From Eledone cirrhosa (lineage: Eukaryota), in NCBI GenBank assembly GCA_964016885.1, contig OZ024765.1:2790001-2854000 (forward strand): a stretch of 64,000 nt of DNA. Direction: 5' to 3'. How positions within the stretch are numbered: the stretch's first letter is position 1; each line of letters opens with the position of its first letter. The notes below the pieces were generated by a model that had not been told where the DNA came from, did no database searches, and saw nothing but the letters and a program-made list of their open reading frames with translations. The translations under genes were made by a program, and so were the position numbers. Positions 5,721 through 13,780 of this stretch are shown here, one piece after another.

Positions 5721-6075
5721 TATTAGCTATTTCATAACAATATTATTTAAGGTTACCAGCTGGTTTCATACCAGATGCAGATTATTTTATTGGAGATAAT
5801 TATATCTATCTACATCTGCTCACCAACCCTCAGACCTTAATGTTTACAAATGGCTGCGAACATATATTCATATAGGTATGTATATACACATATATATATA
5901 TAGTAACAATAATAAATACAAAGACCAAATTCCTGAGAAGACTCAGTAAGGGTCGTATATATATATATATAAATATATATATATATTATATATTTCCGTA
6001 GAAAAAGTAAAGGAAAGAAGGGTGCTCTATGTAAAAAAGAGCTATTTGATTACATAATAAATAACACAATATAAT

Positions 6076-6146
6076 TGTTCCATTACCAAAGGTTTCAGGA
6101 AACTAGATCTTTACAGAAACATCCAGTATGCTCATCAGATGAAATA
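6076..6146 (-). ncRNA. Type I hammerhead ribozyme motif
   Basis: Minus strand reads UAUUUCAU-CUGAUGA-G..stem II..U-GAAAC-CUUUG-GUA-AUGGAACA. Confidence 0.7.
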
Positions 6147-6152
6147 GTTAAC

Positions 6153-6226
6153 TATTTCATCTGATGAGCATACTGGACGTTTCTGTTAGGATGTTCTAGT
6201 TTCCTGAAACCTTTGGTAATGGAATA
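6153..6226 (+). ncRNA. Type I hammerhead ribozyme motif
   Basis: Stem I UAUUUCAU/AUGGAAUA, core CUGAUGA, long stem II (ACUGGAC../..UCUAGU), GAAA, stem III ACC/GGU, cleavage triplet GUA. Confidence 0.75.
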
Positions 6227-6298
6227 ATTATATTGTGTTGTTTATTATGTAATTAAATATATATATATATAATTATGTAATAAACAACATAAGACAAT

Positions 6299-6374
6299 TA
6301 TTCCATTTACCAAAGGTTTCATGAAGACAGACGAACCCGACACACACGTCTGAAATCGCTCATCAGAATGATAT
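6299..6374 (-). ncRNA. Type I hammerhead ribozyme motif
   Basis: Minus strand reads UCAUU-CUGAUGA-G..CAGACG..CGUCUG..U-GAAAC-CUUUG-GUA-AAUGG. Confidence 0.7.
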
Positions 6375-6378
6375 TAAA

Positions 6379-6453
6379 TTTTCATCCTGATGAGTGATTT
6401 CAGACATCTGTGTTGAGCTTGTCTGTCTTCCTGAAACCTTTGGTAAATGGAAT
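6379..6453 (+). ncRNA. Type I hammerhead ribozyme motif
   Basis: UUUCAUC-CUGAUGA-G..CAGACA..UGUCUG..U-GAAAC-CUUUG-GUA-AAUGGAA; first stem I pair is mismatched. Confidence 0.62.
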
Positions 6454-6542
6454 AATTATCTTATGTTGTTTATTATGTAACTAAATAGCTCTGTAGCTTA
6501 CATAGAGCACTCTCCTTTCCTTTACCTTTCCTACGGAAATAC

Positions 6543-6627
<85 letters not shown>

Positions 6628-6830: not shown

Positions 6831-7046
6831 TACGGGGGGGGGGGGTCAGCTGAAAAGCTACAGGCTGACTATGAAGGAGTGATGCTAGAGCTGTGAAATC
6901 TGCATGCAGTATTTAGTAATTTCAACCCCTTTTTATTCATAACTGCATTGTTTCTTTCCAGGAACTATGTTGAAAAAATAAACCTCATTTGGTCATTCCA
7001 TGAGAGTATCTTGGTCAGCTTATGACCTTTTAAGCCAACTCTTGTA
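6831..7046 (+). mobile_element. Mariner-like MITE M1, copy 2
   Basis: Same TIRs and internal sequence as 980-1185. Confidence 0.8.
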
Positions 7047-7051
7047 AATAA

Positions 7052-7083
<32 letters not shown>

Positions 7084-7145
7084 ATGTATATATGTATGTA
7101 TATATATAAGTATGTATATGTATGTATATATATGTATGTATATAC

Positions 7146-7344
7146 ATGAGGGTCGGCTTAAAAGTACACAGGCTGACTATGAAAGAGTGATGCTAGAGAT
7201 GTGAAATCTTGCCTGCATTCATTTCAGTTATTCTTATTAATAACTGCATTGTTTCTTTCTAGGAACTATACTTAAAATAAACCGCATTTGGTCATTCCAT
7301 GAGAGTATCTTGGTCAGCCTATGAATTTTTCAGCTAACCCTCGT
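7146..7344 (+). mobile_element. Mariner-like MITE M1, copy 3
   Basis: tgagggtcggcttaaaagt...ttttcagctaaccctcg. Confidence 0.8.
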
Positions 7345-13097: not shown

Positions 13098-13780
13098 TTC
13101 TTCTTGTTTCTACACATAATACAGAGAGATGAGGAGGGTGAGAGAGATGGGGGTGATGACAGCTGGAGTTCTGCTCTTCAGTGTTCAGACCTGTAAATAA
13201 ACACATAAATAAATAAACACACATACACACGCATGCGTAGATGTAACGCATGCCCCAAACTAAACACACAACACACAAAAACAAGATGGTGTAGAACAGA
13301 ACACAGGAGAGACACACAAAATAAAAACCTAGTCACTGAGGAGGTCACAGAATGTGTGATGAAAGAGCTTTGACAATATATAAACAACCTTCCTGTTATC
13401 GAACCAACCAACCGGAAACTTATAATAAATTCAAGTGAAACCAACAGGTGTGTGTGTTTTTATTGGCAACATGACTCTACCAAAGTATAAAAATATCTGT
13501 TTTTACATGCATAGCTTAGATGAGACAAGTTAGGTCAGGTGACCATGTCTTGCTCGTTCAGAACTGTTTCTAGCTTGGTTTCTATGGCTGGGTGCCCTAG
13601 CTTTCCTATTAAGGACATGTGGTTCGAAAGTCTCACAGGAAAGAATCACTCCAGGTAGAGCTGCTACTTCTTCAAATTGAGGGATCACAGCTCCGATATT
13701 ACAGACATGAGTTCAATTCCCAGGGGTGCATTGTGTCCTTGAGTAAGACACTTCATTTTACGCTACCCTCAATCATAAAT

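What the first reader, a model, noticed from the sequence alone, without database searches (positions are those of the whole stretch)
5991..6541. Double-cruciform element with four hammerheads and compensatory stem II divergence
Two adjacent hairpins are enclosed by a third outer inverted repeat. The hairpins share the core and the GAAAC-CUUUG-GUA-(A)AUGGAA segment but have different stem II sequences that still pair (ACUGGAC/UCUAGU versus CAGACA/UGUCUG and CAGACG/CGUCUG). This suggests selection on RNA structure (inference). Each strand carries two tandem ribozymes ~225 nt apart, the spacing that would release a retrozyme-sized monomer.
Basis: partly seen in the sequence, partly recalled or inferred. 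Interest (0 to 1): 0.72.

Follow-up and report, generated by a model that had tools for sequence, protein, structure and literature searches.

The report
Two abutting Penelope retroelement end stubs
This four-ribozyme 'double hairpin' is two separate, cut-short copies of the ends of two sister Penelope-type jumping genes that lie back to back in one TA repeat; each is a mirror-image pair of ends in a pattern already published, and they are likely dead, so it is real but ordinary.

Summary
The geometry and the four hammerhead motifs are real, but this is not one element. The left half (about 5986-6259, family A) and the right half (about 6270-6546, family B) each belong to a dispersed family (663 and 1043 exact motif hits); they meet at a (TA)5 tract, and no second A-B composite was found. 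Each half is a head-to-head pair of 5'-truncated arms, one ending at a 'short' site and one about 60 nt further on (the tail). Longer copies run upstream through a TG/TA-rich 3' UTR into a reverse transcriptase plus GIY-YIG ORF with the Hydra-clade motifs RWK, DKT and CxCX5C, so the arms are pseudo-LTR ends of Hydra-clade Penelope-like elements. The outer inverted repeat is the two tails. Stem covariation exists between families, not among copies; the window's CAGACA/UGUCUG pair is two CpG transitions. In a read-through RNA every core is predicted to pair with its own antisense arm (+45 to +100 kcal/mol to free it), so a 225-nt retrozyme circle is unlikely. The scan noted this kind before on other DNA.

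The parts
5956..5985 (.). (TA)n target tract at the tail end of insertion A
5986..6150 (-). Family A long arm: 5'-truncated pseudo-LTR end with hammerhead and the ~60-nt tail (tail about 5986-6045; left half of the outer inverted repeat)
6084..6138 (-). Type I hammerhead motif A-minus, predicted cleavage after GUA at 6084; 3-nt deletion in stem II
6139..6160 (.). Head-to-head junction of insertion A: both arms stop 11-12 nt 5' of the core, 2-nt TA overlap
   Evidence: sequence against the upstream sequence of longer A copies
6149..6259 (+). Family A short arm, ends at the short site
6161..6218 (+). Type I hammerhead motif A-plus, predicted cleavage after GUA at 6218
6260..6269 (.). (TA)5 tract shared by the short ends of the two insertions
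6270..6371 (-). Family B short arm, stops about 5 nt 5' of the core
6308..6366 (-). Type I hammerhead motif B-minus, predicted cleavage at 6308; CpG change breaks pair 10.2-11.2
6371..6546 (+). Family B long arm with tail (tail about 6488-6546; right half of the outer inverted repeat); starts about 16 nt 5' of the core
6387..6445 (+). Type I hammerhead motif B-plus, predicted cleavage at 6445; helix I pair next to the site broken (C.A)
6547..6624 (.). (TA)n target tract at the tail end of insertion B

Best explanation
The locus is two separate insertions of sister Hydra-clade Penelope-like retrotransposon families, each a head-to-head pair of 5'-truncated copies of the hammerhead-bearing element end, that share one TA tract, and both are likely dead. 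Shown: two dispersed families; two fixed 3' ends about 60 nt apart; variable 5' truncation and junctions; TA flanks; linkage of the same ends to an RT plus GIY-YIG ORF. Inferred: the element's protein cuts a (TA)n tract, both DNA ends prime reverse transcription at two internal sites of the element RNA (short site and tail site), both cDNAs stop early and are joined head to head through a few bases of overlap; the second element later used the TA tract beside the first. The hammerhead is under selection in the source elements and would act, if at all, in their tandem transcripts, not in these hairpins.
For: Halves found separately: best hits cover query 1-287 or about 233-547, only the locus itself covers all (40 of 4926 candidates scored); only the locus spans the A-B junction in full (40 of 2131 scored). 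Exact motif counts 1043 (B) and 663 (A), control 0. 3' ends are bimodal: B 63 at probe position 116 and 68 at 180 of 173 arms; A 36 at 111 and 50 at 172-175 of 139. In loci taken by position, not by likeness, 30 of 49 had an inverted partner within 1.5 kb and 29 of these 30 pairs had exactly one tail arm. First-look candidates fall from 4926 (whole locus) to 379 and 419 (just upstream of the motif) to 59 (UTR island). L249 reads inverted tail arm - RT - EN - UTR - short arm; L305, L350, L174, L300 (B) and L178, L253 (A) link ends and ORF too. L183: B hairpin, tail, then ORF start with RWK and DKT; L305 EN has CxCX5C, CxxC, CxH; these are the Hydra marks in PMC8557442 section 11. An intact 710-aa sister family (C, 78% identical over the L249 piece) has the same motif, ends and inverted copies. 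Arms of one insertion share rare variants: 18 (A) and 19 (B) against 1.1 and 0.6 between insertions, max 4 in 1000 permutations; also in two pairs over 5 kb apart (9 and 5).
Against: No intact full-length A or B copy was found; their ORFs are broken pieces interrupted by nested insertions, and the link rests on collinear pieces in about seven loci. 19 of 49 position-sampled loci had no inverted partner within 1.5 kb (one has it at 1.85 kb). Four of six long-range B pairs and all four A pairs share only 0-2 rare variants, so 'same RNA molecule' is not shown, only same source lineage; hairpin conversion may add to the sharing. Which insertion came first could not be told. No cleavage or expression data.
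Confidence: 0.93

Rival explanations
1. One retrozyme-like element whose two same-strand hammerheads release a ~225-nt monomer that circularises.
For: Spacing of 227 and 224 nt lies in the size range given for animal retrozymes (150-450 bp, PMC7229834 passages); cores are intact.
Against: The piece between the sites is half A, a TA tract and an antisense B arm, not a tandem unit; no second full copy among the scored hits; P(unpaired) of each core base is at most 0.009 and the hammerhead fold costs +45 to +100 kcal/mol in a read-through RNA; helix I or II next to the core is damaged in all four.
Confidence: 0.02
2. Each hairpin is a short non-autonomous element that moves as a unit or from a short master RNA, using the Penelope enzyme.
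For: Short hairpins far outnumber long copies; 30 of 79 arm 5' ends fall 1-14 nt 5' of the core; arms of one copy share variants.
Against: Junctions differ from copy to copy, with overlaps, fillers and a 100-nt foreign insert; either arm can be the more truncated; arm length runs continuously up to ORF-bearing copies.
Confidence: 0.08
3. A foldback or MITE-type DNA transposon with terminal inverted repeats inserted at TA.
For: Outer inverted repeat, TA on both sides, no ORF in the locus.
Against: The outer repeat is the tails of two families and occurs at one end only of each unit; units are asymmetric, 5'-truncated and tied to an RT ORF.
Confidence: 0.01

Closest known systems
Hydra-clade Penelope-like elements (Craig et al. 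2021, PMC8557442; passages and section 11 read)
   Same: C-terminal GIY-YIG, RWK, DKT, CxCX5C, CxxC and CxH motifs; hammerhead in the pseudo-LTR; (TA)n targets; inverted 5'-truncated copy; tail at one end; partial tandems.
   Different: Tail about 60 nt, not 30-40; unit about 4.3 kb in family C with a long TG/TA-rich UTR, against 'generally <3 kb'; here both arms are cut down to the end, and two families abut.
Poseidon PAc of Anolis, in vitro (Frangieh et al. 2024, PMC11167929; parts 1-2 of 4 read)
   Same: Two internal RT start sites that bound the tail; both strands cut and extended; AT-rich targets; hammerhead not needed for insertion.
   Different: Other clade; the paper does not show how inverted pairs form; there the hammerhead overlaps the ORF start, in family C it lies about 270 nt before it.
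Minimal hammerheads of PLEs (Cervera and de la Pena 2014, PMC4209133; passages read)
   Same: Type I motif in the pseudo-LTR, weak helix III, high variability between families.
   Different: 3-bp helix III with a non-palindromic UUU or ACU loop, a long helix II, and no G10.1-C11.1 pair in A, B, C or D.
Animal non-LTR retrozymes (PMC7229834 passages; bioRxiv 10.64898/2026.07.22.740005 part 1 of 5 and passages)
   Same: Type I hammerheads, no ORF in the locus, related to PLE pseudo-LTRs.
   Different: Retrozymes are head-to-tail tandem units with one motif each; here neighbours are inverted and same-strand motifs belong to different insertions.

Membership tests
Penelope-like element (EN+) | RT and GIY-YIG ORF linked to the repeat end | tested here: met
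   L249, L305, L350, L174, L183 (B); L178, L253 (A). Not in the window itself. Pfam gave no significant match to three ORF pieces; the RT call rests on the YRDD and GxYDSA-type motifs seen (motif meaning recalled) and on the Hydra motifs.
Penelope-like element (EN+) | Inverted 5'-truncated copy with a tail at one end only | tested here: met
   29 of 30 position-sampled pairs; 99 of 105 pairs in all loci, a set biased by the queries
Penelope-like element (EN+) | Partial tandem pLTR-ORF-pLTR | tested here: met
   L183 (B end followed by ORF start); family C L344, L346, L349
Hydra clade | RWK, DKT, CxCX5C, CxxC/CxH motifs, no CCHH | tested here: met
   By eye: L183 and L305 for B; L328 for C. For A only by 49-68% identity of broken pieces to C.
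Hydra clade | Insertion into (TA)n | tested here: met
Hydra clade | Placement in the clade on an RT tree with reference elements | not tested
   No reference sequences fetched; the paper's supplements were not opened
Type I hammerhead | Core CUGANGA, GAAA, UH with three helices | tested here: met
   helices next to the core partly broken in the window copies
Type I hammerhead | G10.1-C11.1 pair | tested here: not met
   G.U in all four window motifs; A-U, G.U, U-A or mismatch in the families
Type I hammerhead | Self-cleavage | not testable with these tools
   needs in vitro transcription
Non-LTR retrozyme | Head-to-tail tandem units, one hammerhead each | tested here: not met
Non-LTR retrozyme | Circular RNA of monomer size | not testable with these tools
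   no RNA run was listed

The most novel reading that the evidence does not exclude
These hairpins record the Penelope mechanism: both ends of the cut TA tract prime on one RNA at two fixed sites, and reverse transcription stops preferentially just after crossing the hammerhead (30 of 79 arm ends lie 1-14 nt 5' of the core), because the RNA begins there or the ribozyme-protein complex is a barrier. The hairpins would then be mass-produced 'strong-stop' products, and the ribozyme would set insertion length.
Probability: 0.3. Interest if true: 0.5.

Novelty: new member of a known kind. Interest (0 to 1): 0.2.

Why it matters
As a locus it matters little: it is debris of a published kind. It warns that microsatellite-targeted Penelope stubs stack and mimic multi-ribozyme viroid-like or MITE-like elements. 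The families are useful material: an intact young sister (C), a near-strict short-end/tail-end rule, shared variants between arms and a truncation hot spot beside the ribozyme make the open question of how Penelope inversions form testable in vitro.

Tried and rejected
Rfam at gathering and E-value thresholds: no hammerhead family, only generic hairpin matches. GIY-YIG search (PF01541; 150 of 10597 candidates scored): 30 loci and 20 longer stretches held other Penelope families, none with the A/B end. A GIY-YIG piece upstream of the B UTR in L286 was rejected as a nested element with its own hammerhead. An early idea of a fixed 5' end at 'GATA' was a bias of the top hits. The idea that the RNA starts just 5' of the hammerhead got no support in family C: none of its 21 listed ORF-start copies begins 1-14 nt before the core (ORF-biased sample, several cut by the locus edge). 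Pfam on three ORF pieces: nothing significant. Sequencing runs: no RNA holder listed; contigs of four runs gave repeat pile-up only, nothing on expression or cleavage. Dating A against B: arm divergences overlap. Paper searches listed no paper on these families or on two-ended priming as the cause of Penelope inversions; the library lacks most subscription journals and Repbase, and no supplements were read.

Full report
Observation. The region 5986-6546 holds two long hairpins and an outer inverted repeat, with (TA)n at both ends and in the middle. Four motifs CUGAUGA...GAAAC-CUUUG-GUA lie at 6084-6138 (-), 6161-6218 (+), 6308-6366 (-) and 6387-6445 (+), against 0.06 expected. They fit a type I hammerhead with a 3-bp helix III and a 5-8-bp helix I. 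Rfam has no hammerhead match here.

Two elements, not one. The window lies in a 3.0-Gb genome. With the whole locus as query only the locus itself matched in full; the other scored hits covered the left or the right half (40 of 4926 candidates scored; left half alone 40 of 1989). A query across the middle was again covered in full only by the locus (40 of 2131); the one other hit with both sides, L367, is a short end stub, a TA run and an A hairpin, i.e. a separate double landing. Exact 21-22-nt patterns give 663 hits for the left family (A) and 1043 for the right (B), reversed controls 0. The outer inverted repeat is the related tails of A and B.

Anatomy of a unit. Arms end at two 3' sites about 60 nt apart: B 63 at probe position 116 and 68 at 180 of 173 arms, A 36 at 111 and 50 at 172-175 of 139. 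In the first loci by position (22 B, 27 A after removing overlaps; the A set includes a few arms of sister families), 30 of 49 had an inverted partner within 1.5 kb, and 29 of the 30 pairs had exactly one tail arm. Over all fetched loci, a set biased by my queries, 99 of 105 head-to-head pairs were short plus tail. Either arm can be the more truncated; junctions show small overlaps, fillers and once about 100 nt of foreign sequence. In the window, A's arms both stop 11-12 nt 5' of the core with a TA overlap; B's stop about 5 and 16 nt 5' of it.

Source element. Longer copies continue upstream through an AT-rich stretch, a TG/TA-rich UTR with unique islands, and into an ORF; candidates fall from 379-419 just upstream of the motif to 59 at the first island. 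L249 reads inverted tail arm, RT, EN, UTR, islands, short arm: the window's layout with one long arm. L305, L350, L174 and L300 show the same order for B, L178 and L253 for A. In L183 a B hairpin's tail runs into an ORF start with RWK and DKT; the L305 endonuclease has CxCX5C, CxxC and CxH. These are the marks of the Hydra clade, which also targets (TA)n and carries hammerheads (PMC8557442 section 11; passages). A protein search found a young sister family C with many open frames of about 710 aa, 78% identical over the L249 piece, with the same kind of motif, the same two ends, tandems and inverted copies. No intact A or B copy was seen. Pfam gave no significant match and no tree was built.

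Covariation. Among copies of one family both-sided changes are rare (6 cells in 106 A arms, 9 in 126 B arms) against 253 and 215 broken cells, and CpG columns are the least conserved (0.82 and 0.88 against about 0.96): decay after insertion. Between families A-D the core is invariant and helices are kept: 91.9% of cells paired against 31-49% for slid controls, score 0.372 against at most 0.079. Limits: the 31 rows were picked for an intact core, rows are related, two of the helix I changes are one paired U-A insertion, and C's distal helix II is not aligned. So selection on structure is real but lies in the source lineages.

Can the locus release a circle? The same-strand sites are 227 and 224 nt apart, but the piece between is part of A, the TA tract and an antisense B arm. 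Folding either strand of the locus pairs every core base with its antisense arm (P unpaired at most 0.009); forcing the hammerhead costs +99.9, +45.1 (helix III only), +89.3 and +95.9 kcal/mol. Alone, the arms are 4-7 kcal/mol from the hammerhead fold, all have G.U plus a mismatch at the base of helix II, and 6387 has lost the pair beside the cleavage site. Minimal PLE hammerheads cleave weakly in vitro (PMC4209133 passages), and the Anolis one needs protein and is dispensable for insertion (PMC11167929). Retrozymes are head-to-tail tandems (PMC7229834 passages; bioRxiv 10.64898/2026.07.22.740005). No RNA data bear on this.

Mechanism. Frangieh et al. show cutting and extension of both strands and two internal start sites that bound the tail. 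I infer that each end of a cut TA tract primed at one of the two sites, both cDNAs stopped early and were joined head to head. Arms of one hairpin share rare non-CpG variants (18 in A, 19 in B; 1.1 and 0.6 between insertions, max 4 in 1000 permutations), spread along the arm. Two B pairs over 5 kb apart share 9 and 5, but the other four B and all four A long-range pairs share 0-2; this shows a common source lineage, not one RNA molecule, and conversion within hairpins may contribute. Unexplained: 30 of 79 arm 5' ends (BLAST ends) lie 1-14 nt 5' of the core; family C gave no sign of an RNA start there.

Verdict. Real, explained, and of a published kind; new families only. Earlier AI notes of this scan reached the same kind of reading on other DNA (seen after my reading was written; nothing by sequence or place); they are not independent support. 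The host animal was not named by any tool. Supplements of the papers were not read and may list these families.

Noticed in passing
window 52330-52381 (-) and 52516-52570 (+): Another head-to-head pair of hammerhead-like motifs from an unrelated repeat family before a TA/TG tract, with a diverged third arm at 52942.
   Followed up: partly
window 992, 13336, 60668, 61587 (-), 62115: Further single CUGANGA...GAAA motifs of other families; those at 13336, 60668 and 61587 also occur in loci that hold Penelope ORF pieces.
   Followed up: no
window 6860-7344: Two copies about 300 nt apart, 87-95% alike in parts, next to the locus; they resemble the motif-bearing sequence at 992 but have a changed core: possibly a decayed retrozyme-like tandem.
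   Followed up: no
window 36158-39346 (+): Open frame of 1062 aa that reads like an endonuclease plus reverse transcriptase LINE (by eye).
   Followed up: no
window 45836-45899: Weak tRNA match (29.9 bits), probably the head of a common SINE.
   Followed up: no
L344:3578-3665 and other family C copies: Family C carries a second, about 83% alike hammerhead copy in its 3' UTR, about 400 nt after the stop and 1.5 kb before the pseudo-LTR one.
   Followed up: partly
L249, L257, L272, L286, L300, L310: The TA tracts inside the elements' own 3' UTRs are filled with nested insertions of other Penelope families, which is why long copies are broken up.
   Followed up: partly
L254:999-2078 and L265:2944-5417: A 310-nt tandem array with a CUGAUGA...GAAAC motif in the printed units, nested in family A UTRs: looks like a true retrozyme array.
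   Followed up: no
L135-L137, L180, L023, L367: Other compound sites with two ends of this family group facing across a TA tract, so stacking as in the window recurs with different partners.
   Followed up: partly
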